64,000 bases of DNA from contig CBDFMR010000005.1 in the NCBI GenBank assembly GCA_965249765.1, positions 1,506,782 to 1,570,781 of the forward strand, in the 5' to 3' direction. The stretch is from Saprospiraceae bacterium (GTDB taxonomy: Bacteria; Bacteroidota; Bacteroidia; Chitinophagales; Saprospiraceae). The position numbers were made by a program, and so were the translations under genes. Position 1 is the stretch's first letter, and each line of letters opens with the position of its first letter. This document shows positions 42,001 through 55,264 of this stretch, piece after piece. The notes beneath the pieces are model-generated. The model saw nothing but the letters and a program-made list of their open reading frames with translations, had not been told where the DNA came from and did not search any database.

Positions 42001-44501
42001 CATTTGACATAATCGTGACTGGAACAAATCTCGGATCTGGTTGGACTGCCGATGACACAAATTTTTCTTCCGGTAATTATGATGTAGTGATCAGTCTTGG
42101 TCCTTATGCTATATCGGATGGGGCACTTTCCTTTGTGATAGAAGACGTGGGAGATAGTGACTGCTTTATACAAGTGGATGTGCCACTCCCACGGTCTTGC
42201 TCTGACAACTGTCAAATTACAGTTCTTTCTTCTGAAATTGGAATTTGCGATGACAATAATACTGGAACCATTGATAGTGATGATATCTATAATGTTACGA
42301 TCAACGTAGATGAGTCAAATACAGCTCCGGGTAGTCAATATACGGTGACATGGAATGCAATGACTCGGGGTCCATTTGACTATAATACAGACCATGTCAT
42401 TACGGGATTACCAGCCGATGGCAGTAATATCACGTTGACAATTGTGGATGCATCAGGCAATTGCCAGACAACTTTAGATGTCACGCAGGTTTCATGCTCG
42501 TCCTGTGACCAAACAGTGGATGCTGGTACTGACCAGACCATCGATTGTAGTACTCCCGAGGTGACCATCATTACCAATTTATTAGAGATACCAACAACGT
42601 ACAACTGGACAGGACCTTCAGGATTCACGAACGACCAGAGGTCATTTATAACTTCCACAGATGGGACCTATTGTGTGACCGTGACATTTGATAACTTCTG
42701 TACGGCTACAGATTGCACAGCGGTCATTGCAGGTGCAAGTTTACCAGTTGCGGATCCAGGAGCAAATCAGACCATAACATGTACAAACCTAATGGTAACC
42801 TTGGGTGGCCCCCTGACCACAACAGGATCTGGAATAACGTATGAGTGGAAGGATGAAGCTGGAATTATCGTTTCGACGGATCAATTCTTTACTAGTAATA
42901 TTCTAGGAACATATTTCTTTCAGGTTATTAATGGAGGATGTGCTTCTACTATTCAATCTGTCACAGTTATTGACGGAACGACAGTACCATCAGCCGTCAT
43001 CTATACCGACCCAGGAAACGTGATCAACTGTCTGGTTTCCTCTGTTCTATTGACCACTGATGAAGAAACAGACGTCACCTATACATGGATATTGACAGAT
43101 GGGTCAATTGAAGCTGATTCAATAATTATATTAGTAGGAGGAGAAGTGATTCTTGTTGCATTAGATACCATTACAGGATGCAATAATCAAAGTGCCATTC
43201 AGATTGGTGACTTCATAGAATACCCGATCATTGACATAGCTAGCGTAGATCCACTTACTTGCACGATCCCGACCACGACCATCAATGCGACCGCTTCTCA
43301 GTCTGGTACTAGCATTGTCTATCAATGGTATGACAGCAACTTTAATCCTATTGTTGGGGGGACGTCAAGCACCTTGGATGTCGCCTCGCCCGATACGTAC
43401 TACTTTGAAGCAAGAGATGGTGACAACGGATGTACCAATGTAGATACTGTAATTGTATTATCAGAGATAGACTATCCACTAGCTGATGCTGGCGAGAATG
43501 TCACCATTAGGTGTAGTGATACTGATATCTCACTCAATGGAACTGGCTCTGAGATGGGAAGTACGATCCACTACAATTGGAGCAGTCTTGACGGCAACAA
43601 TATCATCAGTGGAAATACAACAATACCGTCAGTTGATGAAGCAGGTTGGTATTTCTTAGAGGTTAGCAATGGTGACAATGGGTGTGCTTCCATTGACTCT
43701 GTATTGGTGCAGGAAAATATGAATATGCCTGAGGTAGATGAGATCATCGTTCTTCATCCAAGTTGTTTTGGGGATACTGGTGGTGTGATAGATATTAGCA
43801 TCATGGGAGGTACTCCTGAGTATCAGTACTCGATCAACGGTGGTGCTTTCACTAGCGGATCGACATTCTCTAACATTGGTGGAGGGACTTACGACATTGT
43901 AGTAGAAGATCAGGATGGTTGCGTATTGGATACATCAATTGTCTTGACTGCACCTCAAGAACTCACCCTTGAGATCATAGGAGATTTTGAAATTGACTTG
44001 GGAGAGAGCACCATACTGGAAGGTGTAACAAACATATCAGCTAGTGAAATAGCTTCCATTGAATGGACTCCTGCAGATAATCTCAACTGTCCAGGATGCC
44101 TAATCACAGAAGCCAACCCAGGAGAAACTACGCTATATTTATTGACATTAATAGATGCCAATGGTTGTGAGATTAGTGAATCAGAAGTAATCTCAGTTTC
44201 TACAGATGTAGATATCTTTGTTCCAACAATATTTTCACCCAATGGGGATCAGGTCAATGATAATTTTACTGTATTCTCTAAAGACAATGTACGAGAGATC
44301 AAAAGGATTTTGATATTCGATCGATGGGGCGAGCGGGTATTCTCTAACTTTGACTTTCAGTCGAATGATCCATCATTAGGATGGGATGGTTCATTCGAGG
44401 GAGTAAATGTGGTCCAAGGTGTATATGTTTACCTCATAGAATACAAACTCATCAATGGTCAAATTAGGCAATTGATCGGCGATGTGACTATCGTAAGATA
44501 G
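36033..44501 (+). CDS. giant (2822 aa) secreted T9SS substrate/adhesin: N-terminal lamin-tail-like domain, about 20 copies of an 80-aa repeat, a SprB-type repeat, and a type-B T9SS C-terminal sorting domain
   Basis: Signal peptide. An 80-aa repeat consensus CxSYxLPxITGxNLTGxExYxxxPxGxGxxxxxGxxITxxxTLYIYD recurs through 38.2-41.7 kb. SprB-like GGTPEYQYSINGGAFTSGSTFSNIGGGTYDIVVEDQDGC. C-terminal FVPTIFSPNGDQVNDNF (T9SS type B CTD motif). Confidence 0.8.
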   Translation: MDLMDFMRRYCYFALCILTMQLSSYGQGLIVNEVSQGTGGLKEWVELVVVGSPCATVDIRGWVIDDNNGLFTSCPPNAEHGALAGVGLNKGHIRFKNHADWAEVPVGTVILLYAWEPGVPNAQAEIFPLTVDYDDADCDFLRVVPINAASFAHLEQSNTLPIFASGGSCAQNRTCPNGTATPGNPSYGGTYVNVGNQSFVGNISIPVSGVIGLRNGGDAFQVRNPSYAYFHGFSWGSGDGGSCGMAPTLTGGPDNLHISATGAANNAYQFQNIISDDYRVVGNFAKVTASTSQSPGEANSCANAQWIASLRYPPDDEFSDGSGACVTSDPTTYMVCEGETIDLELTGCESDTYSWISNNTSIVSISGMTTTQSTTILGVSVGTTTVDVTAILNNTNLGTFAGCPLTTEETYSFTVEVTPADVPTLSPIGSFCESDMAVGLNISQDGYTGSWSGLGVTGNTFDPRSAGSGGSPHTLTFTPDPMQCAIANTLMVVVLPNVTPILTSLGPFCDSDLSFPLITTQDGINGNWSGPGVTGNAFDPGTAGAGGSPHTLTFTPLAGQCASPNSMMVTVEEAPDAGTNGTLTLCEGDALSEAILLGSLGGTPDGGETWSPGVPGTAMADATYTYTVSGISPCMNAMATVMLTVNTPPDAGTNGALTLCAGDGLSEAILFDELGGTPDGGGTWSPGVPGTATADDTYTYTVTGTSPCLNASAMVQLIVHANPDVDDITDVVMCNSYTLPAITGTNLSGNEAYWTGPNGTGTQYIAGQMITADITLFIYDESGTMPNCSDEESFMIDITPPPSLDAVMNVIECGSYTLPTITGMNLTGSESYYDGPGGTGMQYTVGQSITSSIGTMYIYNGMTGCEDEESFSITINTSPDIDDITDVVMCNSYTLPAITGTNLSGNEAYWTGPNGTGTQYIAGQMITADITLFINDDSGTMPNCSDEESFNITIAPPPDLDPVSNVISCDLYVLPVITGSNLTGGQLYYDGPGGIGTSFGPGQVITSSIATLFVYDGTVDCDDEESFSITINSTPVIDDMSNVTACQNYTLPLITGFNLTGNEAYYTAPNGGGMSFSSGQVITNDITLFIYDETGTTPNCADDESFTITINEPPNLDVPPNVSECDLYILPGISGSNLTGSENYFSGPGGTGIPYFVGQMITSTIPVIYVYDGVLDCGDEESFSITIFPSPSVEDILDQTICDSYQLPMITGLNLSGNESYWTQSGGMGNKFFAGQMITSSQTLFIYDETGSMPNCFSEESFSITINISPDVDDLSNVAQCESYELPPITGINLTGSESYWTGPNGTGMQLSPGDMVTEDNTLFIYNETGTSPNCSGEEIFFVAIFDQPNAGVDVSSSVCEGIILDLTTVLSGADVGGVFTDDSGTRALSGNNFNTTGLAGATYQFTYELTAQPPCLDDKSILMITVVTSVSAGNDNSESTCKGNMIDLFTLLDGADAGGSFTDDDGTGALVGSVFNTTGFGGGSFDFSYNIGDGVICPEDEAIITVNVFDNIDINNPGDVAECGSYILPTIVGVNLTGGEAYFDAPMGMGNQYDAGDMITVSITLYLYDSNRNCEDQEELNISITDSPLLDNPGNQQACGSYTLPLITGSDLTGAEAYYDAPLGMGNQYTEGNMIFADVTLYIYDGAPGCDDETSFIVDINDLPDIDGMPNVVQCGQYILPDITGTNLTGNESFWSQSGGAGTQYLEGDIISGDILLYIYDGVVGCEDQESFTIDISPAPEIIEIADLTECDEVTLPIITGSNLTGNESYWTMSGGTGIQYFDGDLIDANITLYLYDGFPSCDDQDTVSIAIATTSTVDDLADVIECGQFILPEITGTNLSGNEAYYDITGGAGIMYLEGDVITSSILLFIYDGAAGCDSEESVSIVINLPIDELFTITTSYCIDDTPDVLPGTSDNGITGTWLPTSIATDAAGMSDYIFTPDADQCANSYTLTVTINDCNCIIDIPVVSNIQCDDNGTDTDPSDDIYTFDIIVTGTNLGSGWTADDTNFSSGNYDVVISLGPYAISDGALSFVIEDVGDSDCFIQVDVPLPRSCSDNCQITVLSSEIGICDDNNTGTIDSDDIYNVTINVDESNTAPGSQYTVTWNAMTRGPFDYNTDHVITGLPADGSNITLTIVDASGNCQTTLDVTQVSCSSCDQTVDAGTDQTIDCSTPEVTIITNLLEIPTTYNWTGPSGFTNDQRSFITSTDGTYCVTVTFDNFCTATDCTAVIAGASLPVADPGANQTITCTNLMVTLGGPLTTTGSGITYEWKDEAGIIVSTDQFFTSNILGTYFFQVINGGCASTIQSVTVIDGTTVPSAVIYTDPGNVINCLVSSVLLTTDEETDVTYTWILTDGSIEADSIIILVGGEVILVALDTITGCNNQSAIQIGDFIEYPIIDIASVDPLTCTIPTTTINATASQSGTSIVYQWYDSNFNPIVGGTSSTLDVASPDTYYFEARDGDNGCTNVDTVIVLSEIDYPLADAGENVTIRCSDTDISLNGTGSEMGSTIHYNWSSLDGNNIISGNTTIPSVDEAGWYFLEVSNGDNGCASIDSVLVQENMNMPEVDEIIVLHPSCFGDTGGVIDISIMGGTPEYQYSINGGAFTSGSTFSNIGGGTYDIVVEDQDGCVLDTSIVLTAPQELTLEIIGDFEIDLGESTILEGVTNISASEIASIEWTPADNLNCPGCLITEANPGETTLYLLTLIDANGCEISESEVISVSTDVDIFVPTIFSPNGDQVNDNFTVFSKDNVREIKRILIFDRWGERVFSNFDFQSNDPSLGWDGSFEGVNVVQGVYVYLIEYKLINGQIRQLIGDVTIVR
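38202..38412. repeat. about 210-bp near-identical (about 97%) DNA duplicate inside the adhesin gene; second copy at 38670-38880, offset 468 bp
   Basis: gatgtagatgacatcaccgatgtagtgatgtgcaacagctatacattgccggcgatcacgggg... is repeated with about 6 mismatches. Other adhesin repeats are much more diverged at DNA level. Confidence 0.8.
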
Positions 44502-44574: not shown

Positions 44575-47037
44575 TTGCTGATCTTGAATAAGTCCGAAAA
44601 ATACGTTTCTGTTATCCTTCCATTGGCAATTCCCAAGACCTACACTTATATAGTTCCAGAGCACTTGCTGGATAAAGTGAGTTTTGGTAAAAGAGTAGAA
44701 GTACAATTGAGGAATAAGCTTTATTCTGCATTGGTTGTGGAGTTTCCCGAAGAAGTGGACACTACGCATAAGCTAAAGCATATAATTTCGGTGCTTGATA
44801 ATACTCCCATCATCACCGAATCGCAGTTTGAGCTTTGGGCATGGATATCAAAGTACTATATGAGTACGATAGGGGAGGTGATGAATGTAGCGCTTCCATC
44901 TGGACTAAAACTCAATTCTGAAACCAAGATAATATCCAATGCAGATTACGATGATCTCCAGCAAGAGTTAACTGATGATGAATACTTAGTTGTAGAGGCC
45001 GTTTCAATACAGAATGAACTAAGCATTGATCAGATCAGAGAGATACTAAATAAGAAGACCGTCTATCCGGTAATTCATTCCTTGCTATCCATGTCGATAA
45101 TTCTGATCAAAGAGGAATTACAACAAGGTTACAAACCAAGAATGACTTCTCATGTAAAGGTTGCGGATTTTTATTTGGCATCGGACAAAAATATGACGAC
45201 TGCTTTTGATGCAATCGGCAGATCTGAGAAGCAGACTTTTGCATTGTTGGCGCTTGTAAAATTGAAAGGAACGGAACATTTTGTTCAAAGATCATTGGTA
45301 TGTAAGGAAGCTGGAGTAGACACCTCTGTGGTCAATGCCTTGGTAAAGAAAGGCATCTTGGTGAAGGAAGATCGGCAGGAGAGCAGGATCAAAAGTTATG
45401 ATTCGGAGGAGCATGGCATACCTCCGATGAGTGATGACCAGATCGTGGCTCACAAGAAGATTGTAGACAAGTTTGAGGACAAAGATTGTGTGCTTCTTCA
45501 TGGGGTGACTGGAAGTGGTAAAACACGGGTTTATATTGAGTTGATTCAAGAAGCGATTGATCAAGGAAAACAAGTCTTGTATTTATTGCCCGAGATAGCT
45601 CTGACGACTCAAGTAGTAGCGAGATTGAGAGTTGTTTTTGGCAATAAAATAGGTCTTTATCATAGTAAGTTGAATAATCATGAGAGGGTAGAGGTTTGGC
45701 AAAATTGCATGAAAGGTCAGTCTGTTGTTCTAGGTGCAAGGTCTAGTCTCTTTCTACCGTTTCGCGACTTAAGTCTCATCATTATTGATGAAGAACATGA
45801 TCCCTCATATAAACAAAATGATCCAAGCCCACGGTATAATGGAAGAGACGCAGCTCACTTCCTCGCAAAATCTTTTGGAGCAAAAATTCTATTAGGTACT
45901 GCTACTCCATCATTGGAAACTTTTTACAATGTAAAACAAGAGAAGTATGGTCTGGTTGAATTGACTGAGCGCTACGGAGAGGCATTAATGCCGGCCATAG
46001 AAGTCATTGATATGCAATATCAACAGAATACCAATCGTGTCAAGGATTACCTGAGTCTTGATTTACGAGAAGCAATTCGATCTACTCTTGACGAAGGAGA
46101 GCAAGTGCTCTTGTTTCAAAATAGAAGAGGGTATGCTCCTATCTTGACTTGCGATATTTGTGCTTGGGTTGCAGAATGTGTTCATTGTGATGTAAGCTTG
46201 ACCTATCACCAGTTTCATGATGAATTGAGGTGTCACTACTGCAGTCATCGTACTAGAAAAATGAACATATGCTCCCAATGTGGTTCTGATAAGTTGTCTA
46301 TTAAAGGACTCGGAACACAGAAAATTGAGGAGATCATTGGGATTCATTTTGAGGATGCTACCATAAAGCGTATGGACTATGATACGGCAAAGACAAGAAG
46401 GGCATTTGAACGAATAATTACCGACTTTGAGCAAAGGAAGATAGACATACTTGTAGGTACTCAGATGATTACAAAGGGCCTTGATTTTGACAACATAGGA
46501 CTGGTGGGAATTCTCAATGCGGACGGTATCATATACTTCCCAGACTTTAGGTCTCACGAAAGAGCTTTTCAACTATTTACCCAAGTGAGTGGTAGAGCCG
46601 GTAGAAAGAAAAAGAGAGGACGAGTTATTATTCAGTCCTATTCTCCTACGCACCCGATACTCTCAGAGACCATCAATAATGATTTCGATGGATTTTATAA
46701 TAGAGAAGAGAGAGAACGTGCAAGATTCGTATTTCCCCCGCACATTAAGCTGATAGGTGTGCTGTTAAAACATAAAAAATCAAATACCGTGGCTGATGCA
46801 GCCAACTACCTTGTCAAGGAATTGAAACCAGTTCTAGGAAATAGGGTTGTAGGACCTTCAGTACCGGGTATAGCTCGCATACGAAATATGTATCAACAAT
46901 ATGTTCTCATTAAGATGGAAAACGACCCAGTTGTAATATCAAGAATAAAGACATTGCTATCAGAGAAAAAATCTCAACTTGTCAACGCTCCAGGATTCAA
47001 GTCAGTCCGAGTAAATATTGATGTAGATCCGTATTAA
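44575..47037 (+). CDS. priA: primosomal protein N' (replication-restart helicase PriA)
   Basis: 820 aa. Walker A LHGVTGSGKT, DEAH-type IIIDEEHD, Cys-rich zinc-binding insert CDICAWVAECVHCDVSLTYHQFHDELRCHYCS...CSQCGS. Its stop TAA (47035-47037) overlaps the stop (47034-47036) of the convergent peptidase-gene remnant. Confidence 0.9.
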   Translation: MLILNKSEKYVSVILPLAIPKTYTYIVPEHLLDKVSFGKRVEVQLRNKLYSALVVEFPEEVDTTHKLKHIISVLDNTPIITESQFELWAWISKYYMSTIGEVMNVALPSGLKLNSETKIISNADYDDLQQELTDDEYLVVEAVSIQNELSIDQIREILNKKTVYPVIHSLLSMSIILIKEELQQGYKPRMTSHVKVADFYLASDKNMTTAFDAIGRSEKQTFALLALVKLKGTEHFVQRSLVCKEAGVDTSVVNALVKKGILVKEDRQESRIKSYDSEEHGIPPMSDDQIVAHKKIVDKFEDKDCVLLHGVTGSGKTRVYIELIQEAIDQGKQVLYLLPEIALTTQVVARLRVVFGNKIGLYHSKLNNHERVEVWQNCMKGQSVVLGARSSLFLPFRDLSLIIIDEEHDPSYKQNDPSPRYNGRDAAHFLAKSFGAKILLGTATPSLETFYNVKQEKYGLVELTERYGEALMPAIEVIDMQYQQNTNRVKDYLSLDLREAIRSTLDEGEQVLLFQNRRGYAPILTCDICAWVAECVHCDVSLTYHQFHDELRCHYCSHRTRKMNICSQCGSDKLSIKGLGTQKIEEIIGIHFEDATIKRMDYDTAKTRRAFERIITDFEQRKIDILVGTQMITKGLDFDNIGLVGILNADGIIYFPDFRSHERAFQLFTQVSGRAGRKKKRGRVIIQSYSPTHPILSETINNDFDGFYNREERERARFVFPPHIKLIGVLLKHKKSNTVADAANYLVKELKPVLGNRVVGPSVPGIARIRNMYQQYVLIKMENDPVVISRIKTLLSEKKSQLVNAPGFKSVRVNIDVDPY

Positions 47038-47151
47038 AATGTTACTTTCTTTGAGAGTTCCTTTCCATTTCGTTCAATAATTACATCTACCGTCTCACCC
47101 GGATTGAAAGCACTGAGAGCTTCCATATATGACATCATATTGGATATATTT
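47004..47151. repeat. 148-bp long target-site duplication, left copy (= 53871-54018)
   Basis: Identical 148-bp segment at both outer junctions of the IS1634 composite. It contains the 3' ends of priA and of the convergent M28 peptidase gene. Confidence 0.75.
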
Positions 47152-47514
47152 CTTGACTTTGACACTTGTATGAGAGAAATCGTCTGAAACCCTTGCAGGG
47201 TAAGGGTTTAGTTTTTTTATAGTGTAAATTGTATTGCGAAGACAGTTTGTTTTTCTAAGAAATTATTAATATAATGTAGTTATTATGGCTACAATTCGTA
47301 TTGATAAAAAGAAGTCCGGACACTATATGAGTCTGATTCATTCCTATCGCGATGAAAACGGCGTTGCGCGAATGAAAACCCCTTGACTTTGACACTTGTA
47401 TGAGAGAAATCGTCTGAAACCCTTGCAGGGTAAGGGTTTAGTTTTTTTATAGTGTAAATTGTATTGCGAAGACAGTTTGTTTTTCTAAGAAATTATTAAT
47501 ATAATGTAGTTATT

Positions 47515-49125
47515 ATGGCTACAATTCGTATTGATAAAAAGAAGTCCGGACACTATATGAGTCTGATTCATTCCTATCGCGATGAAAACGGCGTTGCGCG
47601 AATGAAAACCCTAGCCAATTTGGGCAAGGCAGAGGACTATAACCCTGAGACACTTAAGAAAATGGGATCCAGGCTGTACGCTCTAGGGGGTGGCAATCCC
47701 TTAGACTTGATGGGTACTGAGGTGGAGGAAGTGGGCAGGTTCAATTTTGGTTATGTGCAATTAGTTGACAGCGTGCTGCACACATTTAAGCTGGACCAGG
47801 TCTTTGCCAGAATAAAAAGAAAGCACCACCTGACCTTTGATTTATACGAAGCGGTGTTGCTGATGTTGGTCGAGCGCTTTAATGTTCCCAACAGTAAACT
47901 GGCTAATTATCACAATCAGGCTGAATATTACTCGGTACAAGACATAAAACTCCATTGGTTGTACCGTGCCTTGGATAAGCTGGACCAATATAGCCACGCC
48001 ATACAGCAAAGTATATATATGACCGGTCGCAATTTATTCAATCAAAAATTAGATATTGTTTTTTATGATGTAACGACTTTTTATTTTGATAGTGATGTAG
48101 AACAAGAAAACACATTAAGAAAAAAGGGATACTCCAAGGATGGTAAAATAGGAAAGACTCAAGTGGTATTAGGAATGCTCATGGATCGTAACAAGCAACC
48201 GGTGGCCTATCATATATTCGAGGGAAACACTGCCGAAGTCAAGACGATAAGTAAAATACTGGAACAGGTAAAAAAGCAATATAGTATCGACAAGGTCATC
48301 GTAGTAGCTGACCGAGCCATGTTATCAGAACAAAACATTGACCTGATCAGTGGGCAAATGGACTTTCCATTCATATTTGGTGAAAAGCTAAAAATGATGA
48401 AAACGCCCGCCAAAGAAGCATTGGTAGATAAGAGCCGCTATAACAATGAATGGGTGTATCAAAAAGATGGAAAACCAATAAAGCTAAAATACACTACACT
48501 AATGTACCAGGGACGAAAAGTGATCTGCACCTACAGTGAAAAAAGGGCACGCAAAGACCGTCATGAAAGAGAAAAACGCCTAATAAAGGCACAGTACTTC
48601 ATGGACAACCCTTCCCAGTTAAAAAAGAAAGCCTCTTACCATTACTTGAACAAAACGGGCAAGGACAGCTACCAGCTCAACGAAAAAAAGATCAAGCAGG
48701 ACCAAATGTACGATGGCTTTTTAGCCATCAGTACCAATGTAGACAACTTGAGTGTTGTGCAAATATTAGATCAATACCGTCACTTGTTTTTAATCGAACA
48801 AGGCTTTAGAACCATGAAAAGCATCTTGGAAGTCAGACCAATGTTTCATTGGACAGACAAAAGAATCCGCGGCCACATTGCTATGTGCTTTATGGCCTTG
48901 GCACTATTAAGACATGTCGAGATCAGACTTGAGAAAAACAAAACACCGCTCTCAGAGCTTACCATTCTAAAAACACTCGACAGGATGCAGTCTAGCAAGA
49001 TTACCCAAGATGGAAAGGACTTTTACCTACGCAGTGCTATGGATTCAAACCAACAAGTACTGATAGATAAATTCAAATTGAAAAAAATCAAACCCCTCAA
49101 TTACAACAGCCTGACAATCAGATAG
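47515..49125 (+). CDS. IS1634-family (IS4-related DDE) transposase, intact
   Basis: 536 aa beginning MATIRIDKKKSGHYMSLIHSYRDENGVARMKTLANLGK, the typical N-terminus of IS1634-group transposases. The element is 1.8 kb with 14-bp IRs. Confidence 0.75.
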   Translation: MATIRIDKKKSGHYMSLIHSYRDENGVARMKTLANLGKAEDYNPETLKKMGSRLYALGGGNPLDLMGTEVEEVGRFNFGYVQLVDSVLHTFKLDQVFARIKRKHHLTFDLYEAVLLMLVERFNVPNSKLANYHNQAEYYSVQDIKLHWLYRALDKLDQYSHAIQQSIYMTGRNLFNQKLDIVFYDVTTFYFDSDVEQENTLRKKGYSKDGKIGKTQVVLGMLMDRNKQPVAYHIFEGNTAEVKTISKILEQVKKQYSIDKVIVVADRAMLSEQNIDLISGQMDFPFIFGEKLKMMKTPAKEALVDKSRYNNEWVYQKDGKPIKLKYTTLMYQGRKVICTYSEKRARKDRHEREKRLIKAQYFMDNPSQLKKKASYHYLNKTGKDSYQLNEKKIKQDQMYDGFLAISTNVDNLSVVQILDQYRHLFLIEQGFRTMKSILEVRPMFHWTDKRIRGHIAMCFMALALLRHVEIRLEKNKTPLSELTILKTLDRMQSSKITQDGKDFYLRSAMDSNQQVLIDKFKLKKIKPLNYNSLTIR

Positions 49126-49844
49126 TTATAGACAACGTATTGCGAAAACGAAAAACTTAACTACTTGATAATCAAATGCTTATGGCTAAAACGTGTCAAA
49201 GTCAAGAAATTGTATTGCGAAGACAGTTTGTTTTTCTAAGAAATTATTAATATAATGTAGTTATTATGGCTACAATTCGTATTGATAAAAAGAAGTCCGG
49301 ACACTATATGAGTCTGATTCATTCCTATCGCGATGAAAACGGCGTTGCGCGAATGAAAACCCTAGCCAATTTGGGCAAGGCAGAGGACTATAACCCTGAG
49401 ACACTTAAGAAAATGGGATCCAGGCTGTACGCTCTAGGGGGTGGCAATCCCTTAGACTTGATGGGTACTGAGGTGGAGGAAGTGGGCAGGTTCAATTTTG
49501 GTTATGTGCAATTAGTTGACAGCGTGCTGCACACATTTAAGCTGGACCAGATCTTTGCCAGAATAAAAAGAAAGCACCACCTGACCTTTGATTTATACGA
49601 AGCGGTGTTGCTGATGTTGGTCGAGCGCTTTAATGTTCCCAACAGTAAACTGGCTAATTATCACAATCAGGCTGAATATTACTCGGTACAAGACATAAAA
49701 CTCCATTGGTTGTACCGTGCCTTGGATAAGCTGGACCAATATAGCCACGCCATACAGCAAAGTATATATATGACCGGTCGCAATTTATTCAATCAAAAAT
49801 TAGATATTGTTTTTTATGATGTAACGACTTTTTATTTCCTGGAT

Positions 49845-50846
49845 TCAAGTAACAAATGCAACACTTGATTGATTGTCTAATTTGTCAGCAAAAACTTCGT
49901 TGGGTGTATTGTACCCAAATCTTTTTCTAGGTCTGTTATTTAATATGTTTTGAACTTCAATTATACGTTGTTTTGTGATCTTATCAAAGTTGTAATCTTT
50001 TGGGAAGTATTGTCTGATAAGACCATTTAGGTTTTCATTTGCACCACGTTGCCAACTGTGATAGGGTTTGGCAAAATAGAAGTCTATATTCAGTTTATTT
50101 GCAATATTTTTATGGTTGGCAAATTCTTTGCCATTGTCAGAGGTGATGGTATGAATAAGAGGCTGCCAATCCTCCAATAATTCTGTTGTTTTGGACTCAA
50201 TTTCTATAGCTTGCTTACTTAATACTTTATCCATTATCAGTATTCCTGTAGCCCGATCATTGATGGTCAATAATGCTTGTTTGTGCTTTTTTCCAATGAC
50301 TAGGTCTATTTCTAAATCCCCTATTCTTTCTTTGCTATCCACTATCGGTGGTCTTTGATCTATACCAACTCTGTCCACCAGAATCCCTCTACAGTCCTTA
50401 CTGTGGCCTCTCTTGCGATATCTCTTGCCCCTGTTTCTTAGATGCTGATACAGCTGGCCACCCTTCTTTTTATCTGCCCAGATGAACTGATATATTCTTT
50501 CAGTACTGACACAATTAATTTCTTCTAATTTAGCCCTTCCCGCGATCTGTTCCGGGCTATAGTCCTTATTAAGTAGATCAATAACATAATCCTCAATAGC
50601 TTGATTCCAGTGCTTCTTTTTGGGCTTTGCTATCTGGCGTTCAACCGCTTTTTTATGTGCTAATTCAGCTCTATAAACCTTAGATCTCTGATCAGTGTTT
50701 CTTTTTATCTCTCGACTAACTACTGACTTGTCTTTTCCAATAAACTCAGCAATCATCGAAATTGACATCTTCTTAGCAAGGCAAATTTCAATATCGCACC
50801 TTTGTTTCAGCGTTAAATGACCCATTCTTTTTTGAGATTTTTGCAA
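49845..50846 (-). CDS. IS30-family transposase
   Basis: 333 aa: N-terminal HTH, DDE integrase core (DLVIGKKHKQALLTINDRATG, ITSDNGKEF, YFAKPYHSWQRGANENLNGLIRQYFPK). Confidence 0.85.
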   Translation of the reverse strand: MQKSQKRMGHLTLKQRCDIEICLAKKMSISMIAEFIGKDKSVVSREIKRNTDQRSKVYRAELAHKKAVERQIAKPKKKHWNQAIEDYVIDLLNKDYSPEQIAGRAKLEEINCVSTERIYQFIWADKKKGGQLYQHLRNRGKRYRKRGHSKDCRGILVDRVGIDQRPPIVDSKERIGDLEIDLVIGKKHKQALLTINDRATGILIMDKVLSKQAIEIESKTTELLEDWQPLIHTITSDNGKEFANHKNIANKLNIDFYFAKPYHSWQRGANENLNGLIRQYFPKDYNFDKITKQRIIEVQNILNNRPRKRFGYNTPNEVFADKLDNQSSVAFVT

Positions 50847-50873
50847 CCCAAAATTAGAATGAAATTTTTCGCC

Positions 50874-50928
50874 GACCAGCCAACAGGCTTTTGGCCTAGG
50901 CCAAAAGCCTGTTGGCTGGTCTTTTTTT
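50874..50928 (+). terminator. perfect 48-bp palindrome (23-bp stem) followed by T7, inside the IS30 element upstream of its transposase
   Basis: gaccagccaacaggcttttggcc-ta-ggccaaaagcctgttggctggtc-ttttttt. Confidence 0.5.
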
Positions 50929-52027
50929 TACAAACAAGAATACCGTTGCATTAACTACTTGAATTCAAGTTTTGATAGTGATGTAGAACAAGAAAACACA
51001 TTAAGAAAAAAGGGATACTCCAAGGATGGTAAAATAGGAAAGACTCAAGTGGTATTAGGAATGCTCATGGATCGTAACAAGCAACCGGTGGCCTATCATA
51101 TATTCGAGGGAAACACTGCCGAAGTCAAGACGATAAGTAAAATACTGGAACAGGTAAAAAAGCAATATAGTATCGACAAGGTCATCGTAGTAGCTGACCG
51201 AGCCATGTTATCAGAACAAAACATTGACCTGATCAGTGGGCAAATGGACTTTCCATTCATATTTGGTGAAAAGCTAAAAATGATGAAAACGCCCGCCAAA
51301 GAAGCATTGGTAGATAAGAGCCGCTATAACAATGAATGGGTGTATCAAAAAGATGGAAAACCAATAAAGCTAAAATACACTACACTAATGTACCAGGGAC
51401 GAAAAGTGATCTGCACCTACAGTGAAAAAAGGGCACGCAAAGACCGTCATGAAAGAGAAAAACGCCTAATAAAGGCACAGTACTTCATGGACAACCCTTC
51501 CCAGTTAAAAAAGAAAGCCTCTTACCATTACTTGAACAAAACGGGCAAGGACAGCTACCAGCTCAACGAAAAAAAGATCAAGCAGGACCAAATGTACGAT
51601 GGCTTTTTAGCCATCAGTACCAATGTAGACAACTTGAGTGTTGTGCAAATATTAGATCAATACCGTCACTTGTTTTTAATCGAACAAGGCTTTAGAACCA
51701 TGAAAAGCATCTTGGAAGTCAGACCAATGTTTCATTGGACAGACAAAAGAATCCGCGGCCACATTGCTATGTGCTTTATGGCCTTGGCACTATTAAGACA
51801 TGTCGAGATCAGACTTGAGAAAAACAAAACACCGCTCTCAGAGCTTACCATTCTAAAAACACTCGACAGGATGCAGTCTAGCAAGATTACCCAAGATGGA
51901 AAGGACTTTTACCTACGCAGTGCTATGGATTCAAACCAACAAGTACTGATAGATAAATTCAAATTGAAAAAAATCAAACCCCTCAATTACAACAGCCTGA
52001 CAATCAGATAGTTATAGACAACGTATG

Positions 52028-53796
52028 TAAGTACTCAATACCTGTTGAGAATTGGGCATAGTTATCCCAAGGATAGTTGATATTTTTGGGTCATTATTTC
52101 GCTTAGCGGGGGGATATTGTTAAGGTTTTGAAGTCGATCCTGAAGATACTCCCAGAAAGATATTTCTAACTTTCTACAGGTTTTTTTCAGTGACAAAAAA
52201 GTATCTCTTGCCAATCTGCCATTTTCACTTCTGGTGCCGGCACTTATCTTTCTTCTTTTGACATATTCGCGGATGTCACTTTCCGAATCATTGTTGTGCA
52301 AAGAACTATTAGGTCGAAGAAGTACCACCAGAAGCTGGTCTTTGTTTTCTCTCAATTTTTCCAATACCTGATTTAGTGAAGAATAGTTAATCACTGGTTC
52401 GCATAAGGTATCAAATTGTTCGTTTAATTGCAATGCCAGATCATCATCAGGGGTTTTCTTGTATTTTTTGAGGGCTTGATACAACTGCCAGAAGGCTGTC
52501 TTTCTGTTTTCTAATTGTGATTGTTGAACTGGATTATAACTTTTGAGTTTTACCAGAGGTCTTTCGGCATGCTTCCAACATAGTGAATGGACAAATAAAT
52601 TGAACTGACCTGCTCCGTCTGAGTGAATCACAGTATTAGGGTCAAATCCATGGGCCACAATAGTTCCTATTAACAAGGCTTCTGTTATTTGTCTGATGAC
52701 GTATTGGGCCGTTATTCCCTCGCGGTTAAAATAATTTTCTAAGCTCGTTTTGTCTTCAAAGATTCGCTCACCACTTTCATAACTTTGCCTTAGTATCCGG
52801 TAATATTTGCTTGCAAATTTTTCTCTTTTAACATACGAAAGGCTCGTCTGGTTGATTTGATAATCTCTTCTTGACTGACGCAGTATTTCCAGAAAATTGA
52901 TACGACTTTTTGAAAACGTTGTCGTAAAGTAGGTAAACAATGAGGAATTGATGCAATTACAAAACCCATTCCTAAACTCATGTCTTGCTCCTGTATCATC
53001 AGTGCGCAATTCTTCCCCCAATTCTATTCCTTTAGATAACAAGGATGCCTTTTCTATGTGAAAAGACTGCTTGTCTTCTGTTAATATAAAGCTGATCTGT
53101 CCAGATGATATATCTATCCCATAGTCTTTCAGTGAGGTTAAAAGTAGCGGCTGGGTCACACCACACTCATAATATTGGTGGAGGATAAAGGCTTTTAATC
53201 TCGGACCAAAATGGGTGTTTTGTAAATGTATAGGTAGCTCCGCTATTCGGATCTCTCCTTTTGGACCCTTCCATTTTTCTAATTTATACTCGATATTATT
53301 GGCCCTTATTATAATATCCTGTCTGATGTGTTTCTGATGACCTATTAATTTCCAGCCTTCCCCTAATCCTGTGATTTTGATCTCTTTGGTCTCGTGAATT
53401 TTTAGCGACGACTTCTTATTCCGTTTTCCACTTGTACGGCTCCCCTTTCCTTTATTCTTATTAGGATTCTTATCTAGTTGACTCGCCTTTATAGTAGGCT
53501 TCTTTGGAAGCTTCTTCAATTTCCTGATTTCAGCTTCTAGTTCTTCAACCTTTTTTGATAGCTTCTCTATTTGCCCAAATCCTTTATTTATCTGTTCATG
53601 AAGAAATTGAACATAGGGCTCTTCCAGTAATTCTTTTCTGAATCCCGGTATACTAATTGCTGATCTTTGTTTCTTTTGACTGATAATTGAGCTTTTTACT
53701 CTATTATCTATTCACGGTCGTACTTATTTAACGTTCAATTTCCTTCTTTGGTTTATTTTCCCAAATTTACTTTTTTTTCGACTATTGAGTACTTAC
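52028..53796 (-). mobile_element. IS66-family single-ORF element (ISBst12-like group, 1769 bp) nested in the right end of IS1634 copy B, with an 8-bp TSD caacgtat
   Basis: Perfect 14-bp IRs gtaagtactcaata. The 8-bp target duplication lies at 52020-52027 and 53797-53804. The 8-bp TSD fits the IS66 family. Confidence 0.7.
52062..53519 (-). CDS. IS66-family DDE transposase (TnpC-like)
   Basis: 485 aa. CWKHAERP (cf. the IS66 CWAHARR motif). The C-terminal LSLKKTCRKLEISFWEYLQDRL resembles the conserved IS66 TnpC tail. HSDGAGQF is a DDE-region segment. Confidence 0.6.
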   Translation of the reverse strand: MKKLPKKPTIKASQLDKNPNKNKGKGSRTSGKRNKKSSLKIHETKEIKITGLGEGWKLIGHQKHIRQDIIIRANNIEYKLEKWKGPKGEIRIAELPIHLQNTHFGPRLKAFILHQYYECGVTQPLLLTSLKDYGIDISSGQISFILTEDKQSFHIEKASLLSKGIELGEELRTDDTGARHEFRNGFCNCINSSLFTYFTTTFSKSRINFLEILRQSRRDYQINQTSLSYVKREKFASKYYRILRQSYESGERIFEDKTSLENYFNREGITAQYVIRQITEALLIGTIVAHGFDPNTVIHSDGAGQFNLFVHSLCWKHAERPLVKLKSYNPVQQSQLENRKTAFWQLYQALKKYKKTPDDDLALQLNEQFDTLCEPVINYSSLNQVLEKLRENKDQLLVVLLRPNSSLHNNDSESDIREYVKRRKISAGTRSENGRLARDTFLSLKKTCRKLEISFWEYLQDRLQNLNNIPPLSEIMTQKYQLSLG

Positions 53797-53870
53797 CAAC
53801 GTATTGCGAAAACGAAAAACTTAACTGCTTGATAATCAAATGCTTATGGCTAAAACGTGTCAAAGTCAAG

Positions 53871-54018
53871 AGTCCGAGTAAATATTGATGTAGATCCGTA
53901 TTAAAATGTTACTTTCTTTGAGAGTTCCTTTCCATTTCGTTCAATAATTACATCTACCGTCTCACCCGGATTGAAAGCACTGAGAGCTTCCATATATGAC
54001 ATCATATTGGATATATTT
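53871..54018. repeat. 148-bp long target-site duplication, right copy
   Basis: Identical to 47004-47151. It begins immediately after the IS1634 right IR (gtcaag|agtccgag). Confidence 0.75.
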
Positions 54019-55151
54019 AAATCTCCCATTTTTATAACGACATCTCCTTTCTCGATTCCTGCGTTACTAGCCGGTCTATTATCTTTTACCCCATCTATAC
54101 GCATTCCTTTTCCGTCAAATAGATAATCAGGCATAACGCCCAGTGTCACTTTGAAATCAGGAACAGCGTCAGACTCGTCTACGGTCTTAGTAAACTTTAA
54201 TTTTCCTTTTCCATCAAGTCGACTTACAAGATCAGTAATATACATGGCGATATCCTTCATTCCTTTGAAGTTCACTTTCTCATAGTCATCAGACGGTTTA
54301 TGGTAGTCACTGTGCTGGCCTGTGAAGAAGTGTAATACAGGGATGTCGTTGTTGTAAAACGATGTATGATCTGACGGTCCTACACCCGATTCTTTTTTTA
54401 CCAGTTTAAAGTTGAACTTATTGGTCTTGTCGAGATGTTTTTCCCATGTTGGGGAGGTGCCCGTTCCACTTATGGCAAGTGATCTTTCAGTGTTGAGTCG
54501 ACCGACCATATCCAGGTTTATCATATAGTTGATAGTGGACAAGTCAATGTTGGCATTCTTTACCCAATAGTTGGATCCCCATAGTCCTTCTTCTTCGCCT
54601 GAGAAAGCCATGATGATGTAGTTATTGTTTTTAGGACCATTAACCAATTCTTTGGCAACACTTAGTAGTACAGCTACACCGCTTGCGTTATCATCAGCGC
54701 CATTGTGTACCTCGGGGTCACCATCCCATAGAGTTCCAAAATGACCATATCCTAGATGATCATAGTGGGCTCCGATGATGACAGTATGTTCCGTTTTATT
54801 ATCAATATGTCCTACAATATTCATCGTGTTGATCTCGCCAGTAGGAGTAAGAGAATGCGGATTTGGTTTCTTATTCAAAGTAAACCTATGGTAGTATCCC
54901 TCATATTCTTTCATGCTGACAAGACCGATCTCCTGATATCTATCTGCGATCCACTTGGCAGCCTTAACCTCGCCTGGAGTCCCTACAAGCCTGCCTTCTA
55001 GATCGTCGGAAGCTAGGAATTTTACAACTGATCTCATTTCTATAGTAGAAATATCAGATTGAATATTTTCAGTAATACTTCCAGTTTTTCTGGAGCAAGA
55101 AATAATTAGGAATACACATAGAATGGTTGTGAGGAACTTCATATTAATCAT
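53901..55151 (-). CDS. M28-family zinc aminopeptidase lipoprotein with a C-terminal PDZ domain
   Basis: M28 motifs (GAHYDHLGYGHF, GADDNASGVAVLL, EEEGLWGS) and a PDZ-like C-terminus (GIEKGDVVIKMGD). Start chosen at MINMKFLTTILCVFLIISCS (lipoprotein signal); the longest ORF extends to 55202. Confidence 0.8.
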   Translation of the reverse strand: MINMKFLTTILCVFLIISCSRKTGSITENIQSDISTIEMRSVVKFLASDDLEGRLVGTPGEVKAAKWIADRYQEIGLVSMKEYEGYYHRFTLNKKPNPHSLTPTGEINTMNIVGHIDNKTEHTVIIGAHYDHLGYGHFGTLWDGDPEVHNGADDNASGVAVLLSVAKELVNGPKNNNYIIMAFSGEEEGLWGSNYWVKNANIDLSTINYMINLDMVGRLNTERSLAISGTGTSPTWEKHLDKTNKFNFKLVKKESGVGPSDHTSFYNNDIPVLHFFTGQHSDYHKPSDDYEKVNFKGMKDIAMYITDLVSRLDGKGKLKFTKTVDESDAVPDFKVTLGVMPDYLFDGKGMRIDGVKDNRPASNAGIEKGDVVIKMGDLNISNMMSYMEALSAFNPGETVDVIIERNGKELSKKVTF

Positions 55152-55264
55152 CTTTCGGCCTACAATATTAGTACTTATTGAGGTACTTTTGCCGCCTGCC
55201 ATTATAATATTACAATGTCATGACCTTGGAATAGTCGGCAAGCATTATTTTCAGCTTTTAAAAT

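What the first reader, a model, noticed from the sequence alone, without database searches (positions are those of the whole stretch)
47004..54018. Nested IS1634/IS30/IS66 composite with a 148-bp target duplication that regenerates both flanking genes
The region contains a partial IS1634 left end, an intact IS1634 copy, and a second copy missing 74 bp of its left end. That second copy carries an IS30 (3-bp TSD ttt) inside its transposase gene and an IS66-family single-ORF element (8-bp TSD caacgtat) inside its right end. The whole composite is bracketed by identical 148-bp direct repeats (47004-47151 = 53871-54018). Very long, variable TSDs are a hallmark of the IS1634 group. Because the duplicated segment spans the overlapping stop codons of convergent priA and the M28 peptidase gene, both genes remain intact. 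This is a clear nested-transposition history. The head-to-tail IS1634 dimer with tandem left ends may be a transposition intermediate (IS-dimer or active junction).
Basis: partly seen in the sequence, partly recalled or inferred. Interest (0 to 1): 0.6.

Follow-up and report, generated by a model that had tools for sequence, protein, structure and literature searches.

The report
Nested insertion sequences with very long target duplications
Four mobile elements are stacked between two convergent genes, and the founding element belongs to a Bacteroidota group of IS1634-family elements that duplicate tens to hundreds of bases of target DNA on insertion, a rare but already described behaviour that here leaves both neighbouring genes intact.

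Summary
An 1825-bp IS1634-family element (IS-A) sits at the overlapping stop codons of convergent priA and an M28/PDZ peptidase gene, flanked by identical 148-bp repeats. A near-identical metagenomic strain carries the empty site, with the 148 bp present once.

The "partial left end + intact copy + copy lacking 74 bp" is not a head-to-tail dimer. It is a second copy (IS-B) inserted into IS-A, flanked by an exact 156-bp duplication of IS-A positions 75-230. No abutted right-end/left-end junction exists.

IS-A also carries an IS30-family element (target duplication TTT) and a single-ORF IS66-family element (target duplication CAACGTAT).

Long duplications are the rule for this element:
- 9 of 9 insertions with recognisable duplications have 66-281 bp.
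- 18 insertions of 30-50 %-identical relatives, mostly Bacteroidota, have 35-704 bp.
- In three of four distant family members checked on plasmids (25-28 % identity) the flanks share only about 3-6 bp; the fourth was unclear.

Both joints prefer a pyrimidine-rich site ending in T. The predicted transposase fold is Tn5-like.

Long variable repeats were already reported for IS1634 and IS1549. This is therefore a new member of a known kind, with a corrected history. The mechanism remains inferred.

The parts
44575..47037 (+). priA (replication restart helicase), intact. Its last 34 nt lie inside the left copy of the 148-bp duplication.
   Evidence: ORF. TIGR00595 575.6 bits and the PriA Pfam domains. 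The same gene abuts the peptidase gene at the empty site L003.
47004..47151 (.). Left copy of the 148-bp target duplication made by IS-A. It holds the priA 3' end plus a relic of the peptidase gene 3' end.
   Evidence: 100 % identical to 53871-54018. Present once at the empty site L003.
47152..47381 (+). IS-A, positions 1-230: left inverted end, terminator-like hairpin and the first 97 nt of the transposase ORF.
   Evidence: No mismatch to 47382-47611. Hairpin at 47187-47209.
47226..47381 (.). Left copy of the 156-bp target duplication made by IS-B inside IS-A (IS-A positions 75-230).
   Evidence: Identical to 49207-49362.
47382..49206 (+). IS-B, an intact 1825-bp IS1634-family element with 14-bp perfect inverted ends. 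Transposase at 47515-49125 (536 aa).
   Evidence: NF033559 375.7 bits and PF01609. Catalytic D185/D266/E428 are invariant among 37 relatives. Predicted fold is Tn5-like.
49207..49362 (.). Right copy of the 156-bp duplication made by IS-B.
49207..49837 (+). IS-A, positions 75-705. Contains the regenerated start of the IS-A transposase ORF (49266-), which is truncated by the IS30-family element.
   Evidence: 99.8 % identical to IS-B 75-705 with one SNP at 49551.
49838..50969 (-). IS30-family element (1132 bp) with imperfect ~25-bp inverted ends and target duplication TTT. Transposase at 49845-50846 (333 aa). A 48-bp palindrome plus T-run lies at 50874-50929.
   Evidence: Junctions. NF033563 290.6 bits; HTH_38, and a sub-threshold rve match (21.8 bits against a 32.6-bit cut-off). 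Palindrome.
50970..52026 (+). IS-A, positions 703-1759 (3' part of the transposase gene, 350-aa ORF remnant).
   Evidence: 100 % identical to IS-B 703-1759.
52027..53796 (-). Single-ORF IS66-family (ISBst12-like) element, 1770 bp. Inverted ends are GTAAGTACTCAATA. Target duplication is CAACGTAT. Transposase at 52062-53519 (485 aa).
   Evidence: Junctions. PF03050 43.2 bits; NCBIfam IS66 103.6 bits, below its cut-off. Other copies in L006, L091, L092.
53797..53870 (+). IS-A, positions 1752-1825 (right inverted end).
   Evidence: One mismatch to IS-B 1752-1825.
53871..54018 (.). Right copy of the 148-bp target duplication. It holds the peptidase gene 3' end plus a 34-nt relic of the priA 3' end.
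53901..55202 (-). M28 peptidase with a C-terminal PDZ domain, intact.
   Evidence: PF04389 144.5 bits and PF13180. Directly abuts priA at the empty site.

Best explanation
This is an insertion-sequence nest built by ordinary, separate transposition events at the 3'-3' junction of priA and an M28/PDZ peptidase gene.

(1) An 1825-bp IS1634-family element (IS-A) inserted with its two ends joined 148 bp apart on the target. One joint lay 31 nt before the priA stop and the other 115 nt before the peptidase stop. Gap repair duplicated the 148 bp, so each gene kept a complete 3' end.

(2) A second, nearly identical copy (IS-B) inserted into the left part of IS-A in the same way. It duplicated IS-A positions 75-230 (156 bp). 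This produces the apparent 'partial left end, intact copy, copy lacking 74 bp'.

(3) An IS30-family element (TTT) split the IS-A transposase gene right after the first catalytic Asp. A single-ORF IS66-family element (CAACGTAT) separated the IS-A right end from the rest. The order of (2) and (3) is not resolved, and IS-A may already have carried the IS30 element when it arrived.

Mechanism of the long duplications (inferred, not shown): the transposase is a Tn5-like DDE enzyme. Its two transposon 3'-OH ends attack opposite target strands tens to hundreds of bp apart, not the rigid 9 bp of Tn5. Each end picks a pyrimidine-rich site ending in T. Host repair synthesis then fills the two long single-stranded gaps.
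For: Shown:
- Exact 148-bp and 156-bp flanking repeats that directly abut the inverted ends.
- Empty site in a 99.9 %-identical strain, with priA and the peptidase gene overlapping by their stops and the 148 bp present once.
- Seven further copies of the same element (at least 99.7 % identical) at unrelated loci carry flanking repeats of 281, 66, 194, 239, 79, 121 and 111 bp.
- 18 insertions of 30-50 %-identical relatives carry 35-704-bp repeats abutting conserved ends (C)CTGAGTTTGACAC.
- Of four distant family members on plasmids, three have flanks that share only about 3-6 bp when read by eye next to the inverted ends; Rhodococcus was unclear.
- Joint preference over 18 half-sites: T at -1 in 14 of 18, and no G at -3 to -1 in 54 positions. 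Relatives show the same trend.
- IS-A and IS-B differ at element positions 419 and 1782. They share 1135A against all metagenome copies.
- Family and fold.

Literature: IS1634 and IS1549 make long variable repeats of 8-514 bp, and no mechanistic model had been proposed (PMC2266710).
Against: - There are no reads, so the assembly of three near-identical stretches cannot be checked directly.
- The same IS1634::IS30 junction occurs at two other loci (L089, L090), and those copies have no flanking repeat at all. Part of the nest may therefore have arrived pre-assembled or spread by recombination.
- Several relatives also lack flanking repeats.
- The widely staggered joining step is inferred from end products only. 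No biochemical data exist for this element.
Confidence: 0.82

Rival explanations
1. One reading: the partial left end, the intact copy and the truncated copy form a head-to-tail IS dimer or 'active junction', that is, a transposition intermediate.
For: Three same-orientation stretches of one element lie in tandem.
Against: - No right-end/left-end junction exists. The IS-B right end abuts IS-A position 75, and the IS-B left end abuts IS-A position 230.
- The two junctions are related by an exact 156-bp duplication, within the 66-281-bp range of this element's other insertions.
- Both joints obey the pyrimidine-rich half-site rule (CCC| and TTT|).
- The two copies differ by 2 SNPs.
Confidence: 0.03
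2. Assembly artefact: one IS1634-family insertion was expanded into several by mis-assembly of repeats.
For: Near-identical repeats are error-prone in assembly. Most homologues in public short-read assemblies sit on about 1.8-2-kb collapsed contigs. No reads are available here.
Against: - The structure follows the element's own insertion rule exactly: a precise 156-bp duplication flanking complete ends.
- The copies carry private SNPs.
- The IS30 and IS66 insertions mark only one copy.
- The contig is 2.88 Mb, which suggests long-read data (inference).
Confidence: 0.04
3. Different order of events: IS-A was already interrupted by the IS30-family element (and perhaps the IS66-family element) when it was mobilised in trans to the priA/peptidase site. 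Only IS-B inserted afterwards.
For: The IS1634::IS30 composite has the identical junction, orientation and TTT at two other loci, L089 and L090. Intact copies are available to supply transposase, and both IS-A ends are intact.
Against: L089 and L090 show no target duplication, so their spread may reflect homologous recombination or gene conversion between copies and not transposition. IS30-family elements can also have strong site preference (general knowledge). The IS66-family element did hit the same 8 bp independently, which shows that repeated targeting does happen in this nest.
Confidence: 0.3
4. The long flanking repeats are not made by transposition. They would arise from later tandem duplication or recombination around a conventionally inserted element.
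For: None specific. Most IS1634-family members are reported with 5-6-bp duplications (PMC2266710).
Against: 27 independent insertions have repeats that end exactly at the inverted ends. No short duplication lies inside them. The empty site shows a single copy.
Confidence: 0.02

Closest known systems
IS1634 (Mycoplasma mycoides subsp. mycoides SC) and IS1549 (Mycobacterium smegmatis), founding members of the IS1634 family
   Same: - Single-ORF DDE element of 1.5-2 kb.
- The transposase matches the IS1634-family model.
- It lacks the Arg of the YREK motif.
- It makes long, variable-length direct repeats on insertion (reported as 8-514 bp; here 66-281 bp, and 35-704 bp in relatives).
   Different: The host is an uncultured Saprospiraceae-like Bacteroidota. 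The closest public transposase is only 62 % identical. I could not compare sequences with IS1634 or IS1549 directly. Whether the long-duplication trait is shared by descent or evolved twice was not tested.
Typical IS1634-family members (e.g. ISGka5 of Geobacillus; plasmid copies in Sulfitobacter, Cupriavidus, Rhodococcus)
   Same: Same family model, similar length and one ORF.
   Different: Published family members make 5-6-bp duplications: PMC2266710 gives 5-6 bp as typical and PMC8024623 reports 6 bp for ISGka5. In the plasmid copies I read about 3-6 bp by eye in three of four. They are only 25-28 % identical to this transposase.
Tn5 / IS50 transposase (IS4 family)
   Same: Best structural match of the predicted transposase (Foldseek E 1.8e-9, about 450 aligned columns). 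It has a DDE triad and a Y-x2-?-x3-E-x6-K signature.
   Different: Tn5 joins its ends 9 bp apart in a rigid synaptic dimer. Here the spacing is 35-704 bp and variable. The Arg of YREK is replaced by Leu424. The spacer between the second Asp and the Glu is 162 residues.
ISBst12 group of the IS66 family
   Same: The 1770-bp inner element has one ORF with a DDE_Tnp_IS66 domain, an 8-bp duplication and ends starting GTAAG.
   Different: It scores below the NCBIfam IS66 cut-off (103.6 against 180 bits). No N-terminal IS66 zinc-finger or leucine-zipper domains were detected.
IS30 family
   Same: The 1132-bp element has an HTH_38 domain (its integrase-core match is below the Pfam cut-off), a 3-bp duplication and imperfect ~25-bp inverted ends.
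   Different: Nothing notable, apart from a 48-bp perfect palindrome with a T-run upstream of its transposase gene.

Membership tests
IS1634 family | Transposase matches the curated family model above its cut-off | tested here: met
   NF033559 375.7 bits against a cut-off of 100, aligned 2-482 of 483. PF01609 40.1 bits.
IS1634 family | DDE catalytic triad with a variant YREK motif (Arg usually missing) and a long spacer before the Glu (PMC2266710) | tested here: met
   D185, D266 and E428 are invariant in 37 sequences. The motif reads Y421-x2-L424-x3-E428-x6-K435, and the D266-E428 spacer is 162 aa.
IS1634 family | Length 1500-2000 bp, one ORF, ends of the form C-----YT (PMC2266710, table) | tested here: met
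   1825 bp with ends CTTGACTT....
IS1634 family | Target duplication of 5-6 bp, AT-rich (typical members) | tested here: not met
   66-281 bp in 9 insertions. This matches the atypical founders IS1634 and IS1549 (8-514 bp), so it does not exclude membership.
IS4 superfamily / Tn5-like fold | RNase-H-like catalytic core with the Tn5-type insertion domain | tested here: met
   AlphaFold2 model with pLDDT 81.6. Top PDB matches are Tn5 transposase, E 1.8e-9 to 3e-8, probability 1.00. There is no sequence-level PDB hit.
IS dimer / active junction intermediate | Right end of one copy abutting the left end of the next, separated by a few bp | tested here: not met
   The IS-B right end (49206) is followed by IS-A position 75. 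The IS-B left end (47382) is preceded by IS-A position 230.
IS30 family | IS30 transposase model, an HTH domain plus an integrase core, a 2-3-bp duplication and 20-30-bp inverted ends | tested here: met
   NF033563 290.6 bits against 80. HTH_38 passes its Pfam cut-off; the rve (integrase core) match is below it (21.8 bits against 32.6). TTT duplication; ends match at 20 of 25 positions, read.
IS66 family (ISBst12 group) | DDE_Tnp_IS66 domain | tested here: met
   PF03050 43.2 bits against a gathering score of 23.1, residues 296-434.
IS66 family (ISBst12 group) | NCBIfam IS66 equivalog cut-off | tested here: not met
   103.6 bits against a cut-off of 180. It is a divergent member at best.
IS66 family (ISBst12 group) | Single ORF (no tnpA/tnpB), 8-bp duplication, ends starting GTAA | tested here: met
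   One long ORF. Duplications CAACGTAT and, in L091, GAATTCGG. Ends are GTAAGTACTCAATA. That these are the group's defining features rests on my own knowledge.

The most novel reading that the evidence does not exclude
A whole clade of IS1634-family elements centred on Bacteroidota uses a Tn5-like transposase whose two ends are integrated without a fixed spacing. Each end independently picks a pyrimidine-rich site ending in T, 35-704 bp from the other. This would be a mechanistically distinct, loosely coupled or sequential target-joining pathway. Copies without any flanking repeat could then be the opposite-polarity outcome, in which the target is deleted and not duplicated. A by-product would be that insertions near gene ends, and even into the element's own 5' end, leave the affected ORFs intact.
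Probability: 0.35. Interest if true: 0.6.

Novelty: new member of a known kind. Interest (0 to 1): 0.4.

Why it matters
For genome annotation, the locus shows that tandem-looking partial copies of an IS1634-family element can be parsed as nested insertions with long target duplications. It also shows that 100-700-bp 'gene fragment' repeats next to such elements are footprints of insertion, not pseudogenes or assembly errors.

For transposon biology, it supplies a recently active, nearly clonal element (at most 5 differences in 1825 bp among 11 copies). The set includes one documented empty site, 27 measured duplications and a half-site preference. No mechanistic model for the variable duplication size had been proposed as of the 2008 review PMC2266710, so this material is suited to testing that question.

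The split within the family points to where the determinant should be sought. Relatives at 30 % identity or more make long duplications, while family members at about 25 % identity show only short ones.

Tried and rejected
- A genome-contig scan with the single transposase found no relative. The profile scan did.
- Helical periodicity of the duplication lengths was tested. The best Rayleigh R was 0.34 at 10.6 bp, below the 95 % null of 0.47, so there is no evidence of phasing.
- I looked for partner flanks that would explain the repeat-less L089 and L090 copies as inversions or exchanges between sampled copies. None were found.
- I looked for a strict target consensus for the IS66-family element. 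L091 uses GAATTCGG and L092 has no duplication, so CAACGTAT is a local hot spot and not a consensus.
- A sequence search of the PDB found nothing. Only the fold search gave Tn5.
- Rfam and tRNA scans of 44-57 kb found nothing.
- The promoter scan was no better than shuffles, 21 against 21.5, and is not used.
- The first IR/TSD script timed out and was replaced by a BLAST-based one.
- I could not name the source organism. PriA is at most 57 % identical to anything else, and the best named relatives are Saprospiraceae and Portibacter.
Full report
**1. What is in the sequence**

- 47004-47151 and 53871-54018 are identical over 148 bp.
- 47152-47381 equals the first 230 bp of an element whose complete copy lies at 47382-49206. 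That copy is 1825 bp with perfect 14-bp inverted ends, CTTGACTTTGACAC / GTGTCAAAGTCAAG.
- These ends occur nowhere else in the window apart from the four expected places.
- From 49207 the same element resumes at its position 75 and runs to its right end at 53870, interrupted twice.
- The first interruption is a 1132-bp element at 49838-50969 flanked by TTT.
- The second is a 1770-bp element at 52027-53796 flanked by CAACGTAT, with ends GTAAGTACTCAATA.

**2. Families**
- The 536-aa ORF (47515-49125) scores 375.7 bits on the NCBIfam IS1634 model (cut-off 100) and hits Pfam DDE_Tnp_1.
- In an alignment with 36 relatives, D185, D266 and E428 are invariant. The signature reads Y421-x2-L424-x3-E428-x6-K435, so the Arg of the IS4 'YREK' motif is absent. 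PMC2266710 describes this for the IS1634 family.
- An AlphaFold2 model (pLDDT 81.6) finds Tn5 transposase as its best solved match (Foldseek E 1.8e-9).
- The 333-aa ORF is an IS30-family transposase: 290.6 bits against 80, with an HTH_38 domain and a sub-threshold rve match.
- The 485-aa ORF carries DDE_Tnp_IS66 above the Pfam threshold but falls below the NCBIfam IS66 cut-off (103.6 against 180). With one ORF, an 8-bp duplication and GTAAG ends, it is best called a divergent ISBst12-like member of the IS66 family.
- The flanking genes are priA (44575-47037, +) and an M28 peptidase with a PDZ domain (53901-55202, -).

**3. The 148-bp repeat is a target duplication**

A metagenome assembly (ENA ERZ26222911) contains a nearly identical strain in which the peptidase gene and priA abut directly and overlap by their stop codons (L003). 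I deleted 47152-54018 from the window. The result aligns with L003 collinearly and without gaps at 99.9 % over 3134 bp. The 148 bp are therefore single-copy in the uninterrupted state.

The duplicated block holds the last 34 nt of priA and the last 118 nt of the peptidase gene. That is why both ORFs are complete, even though the two joints lie inside both coding regions.

**4. The 'dimer' is a self-nested insertion**

47226-47381 is identical to 49207-49362 (156 bp). These two blocks are IS-A positions 75-230, and they flank the complete copy exactly at its inverted ends. The simplest reading needs one event. A second copy (IS-B) inserted into IS-A and duplicated 156 bp of it, just as IS-A duplicated 148 bp of the chromosome.
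- There is no right-end/left-end junction, which an IS dimer or active junction would require.
- IS-A and IS-B differ at element positions 419 and 1782. They share 1135A, which none of the nine metagenome copies has. They are distinct but closely related copies from the same genome, which also argues against an assembly duplication.
- The duplication starts 59 bp upstream of the transposase ATG, so the IS-A ORF start was itself regenerated downstream of IS-B.

**5. Long duplications are this element's rule**

Exact-protein look-ups retrieved seven further copies (at least 99.7 % identical) at unrelated loci.
- All carry flanking direct repeats that end exactly at the inverted ends.
- Their lengths are 281, 66, 194 (one mismatch), 239, 79, 121 and 111 bp.
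- With the two in the window, that makes nine insertions of 66-281 bp.

A profile scan of species-representative genomes gave 80 loci of 30-50 %-identical relatives, mostly Bacteroidota.
- Eighteen of them show the same pattern, with repeats of 35-704 bp.
- These include Imperialibacter 102/124/151, Polaribacter 262/482 and Saprospiraceae 362/448/704.
- Their end motif is conserved: (C)CTGAGTTTGACAC.
- Over all 27 insertions the median is 148 bp and the interquartile range 90-220 bp. No 10-11-bp periodicity is detectable.

By contrast, I checked four distant family members on plasmids (25-28 % identity). In Sulfitobacter, Cupriavidus and Geobacillus the flanks next to the inverted ends share only about 3-6 bp, read by eye; Rhodococcus was unclear. 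This agrees with the 5-6 bp given as typical and with the 6 bp measured for ISGka5 (PMC2266710, PMC8024623). The trait is thus clade-specific within the family.

Some copies have no flanking repeat at all: L089, L090, three of six Imperialibacter copies and three of five Polaribacter copies.

**6. How it most likely works**

Shown:
- Both joints of each insertion follow one half-site rule. The base next to the element end is T in 14 of 18 cases, and no G occurs in the last three target bases (0 of 54).
- Relatives show the same pyrimidine-rich pattern.
- The rule holds for the IS-B joints inside IS-A (CCC| and TTT|).

Inferred:
- A Tn5-like DDE transposase liberates the element.
- Its two 3'-OH ends attack opposite target strands at two such sites, separated by a variable 35-704 bp with 5' stagger.
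- Repair synthesis across the two long gaps produces the duplication.
- The absence of a fixed spacing or helical phase suggests that the two joining events are only loosely coupled. The target may be looped, or integration may be sequential.
- PMC2266710 states that no mechanistic model had been proposed for IS1634 and IS1549. I found nothing later in the held library.

**7. The history is less linear than it looks**
- The IS1634::IS30 composite, with the same junction, orientation and TTT, occurs at two other loci (L089, L090). IS-A may therefore have arrived already interrupted and been mobilised in trans, or the interruption may spread between copies by recombination.
- The IS66-family element has hit the same 8 bp of the IS1634-family right end at least three times. 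One hit is in the window. Two are in L006, in the opposite orientation and as a tandem: CAACGTAT|IS|CAACGTAT|IS|CAACGTAT.
- Elsewhere the IS66-family element uses GAATTCGG. The site in the IS1634-family right end is therefore a hot spot, not a strict consensus.

**8. Verdict**
It is wrong about a dimer or transposition intermediate.
- The behaviour is already known for the two founding members of the family, so this is a new member of a known kind.
- The added points are that the trait is shared by a broad Bacteroidota clade, that it follows a half-site rule, and that it explains tandem-looking partial copies.
- The host is an uncultured Bacteroidota whose PriA is at most 57 % identical to any other. 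Its best named relatives are Saprospiraceae and Portibacter.
- Nothing else (RNA genes, tRNAs) lies in 44-57 kb.

Noticed in passing
window 52019-52026 / 53797-53804; L006 6619-6626, 8397-8404, 10142-10149: The IS66-family element has inserted at least three times into the same 8 bp (CAACGTAT) of the IS1634-family right end. One hit is in the window. Two are in L006, in the opposite orientation, forming a tandem pair separated by exactly the 8-bp target. Elsewhere it uses GAATTCGG (L091), so this is a local hot spot and not a consensus.
   Followed up: partly
L089 6175-9134; L090 6175-9134: The IS1634::IS30 composite, with the same junction, orientation and TTT as in the window, lies at two further unrelated loci. 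Neither has any flanking direct repeat, and no partner flanks were found among the sampled loci. Mobilisation in trans, recombination or a non-duplicating insertion outcome could explain this.
   Followed up: partly
L012, L037, L047 (Imperialibacter); L046, L048, L049 (Polaribacter): About half of the copies in two complete MAG chromosomes have intact inverted ends but no detectable flanking repeat within about 2.8 kb. Their sister copies have repeats of 102-482 bp.
   Followed up: partly
window 50874-50929: A perfect 48-bp palindrome (24-nt arms, no spacer) followed by a run of T lies inside the IS30-family element, between its transposase start and its end. It looks like a strong terminator on the + strand.
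   Followed up: no
window 47187-47218 and 47417-47448: A terminator-like hairpin (AAACCCTTGCAGGGTAAGGGTTT plus a T-run) lies at positions 36-67 of the IS1634-family element, just inside the left end and upstream of the transposase gene. It probably blocks read-through from outside. The 156-bp inner duplication starts just after it.
   Followed up: no
L006 4103-4867 and 10226-10454: The IS1634-family composite in L006 is itself inserted, with a 79-bp duplication, into a second and more divergent IS66-family element (88-95 % identity). The two element types therefore insert into each other.
   Followed up: partly
L007 (ENA ERZ26222911 ctg998583_20x_c): One copy of the element sits on a 39.5-kb contig labelled circular, at about 20x coverage against 7-11x for the other contigs. 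The contig also encodes two giant SprB/TSP3-type proteins. It may be a plasmid-like replicon or a mis-circularised repeat.
   Followed up: no
one search hit list: Most of the 1755 homologous transposases in public data lie on contigs of about 1.8-2.5 kb, that is, the element alone. Short-read assemblies break at these elements, so their long duplications go unseen.
   Followed up: no
window 36033-44501: A 2822-aa ORF lies immediately upstream of priA. The equivalent gene is also present next to priA at the empty site L003. I did not examine it.
   Followed up: no
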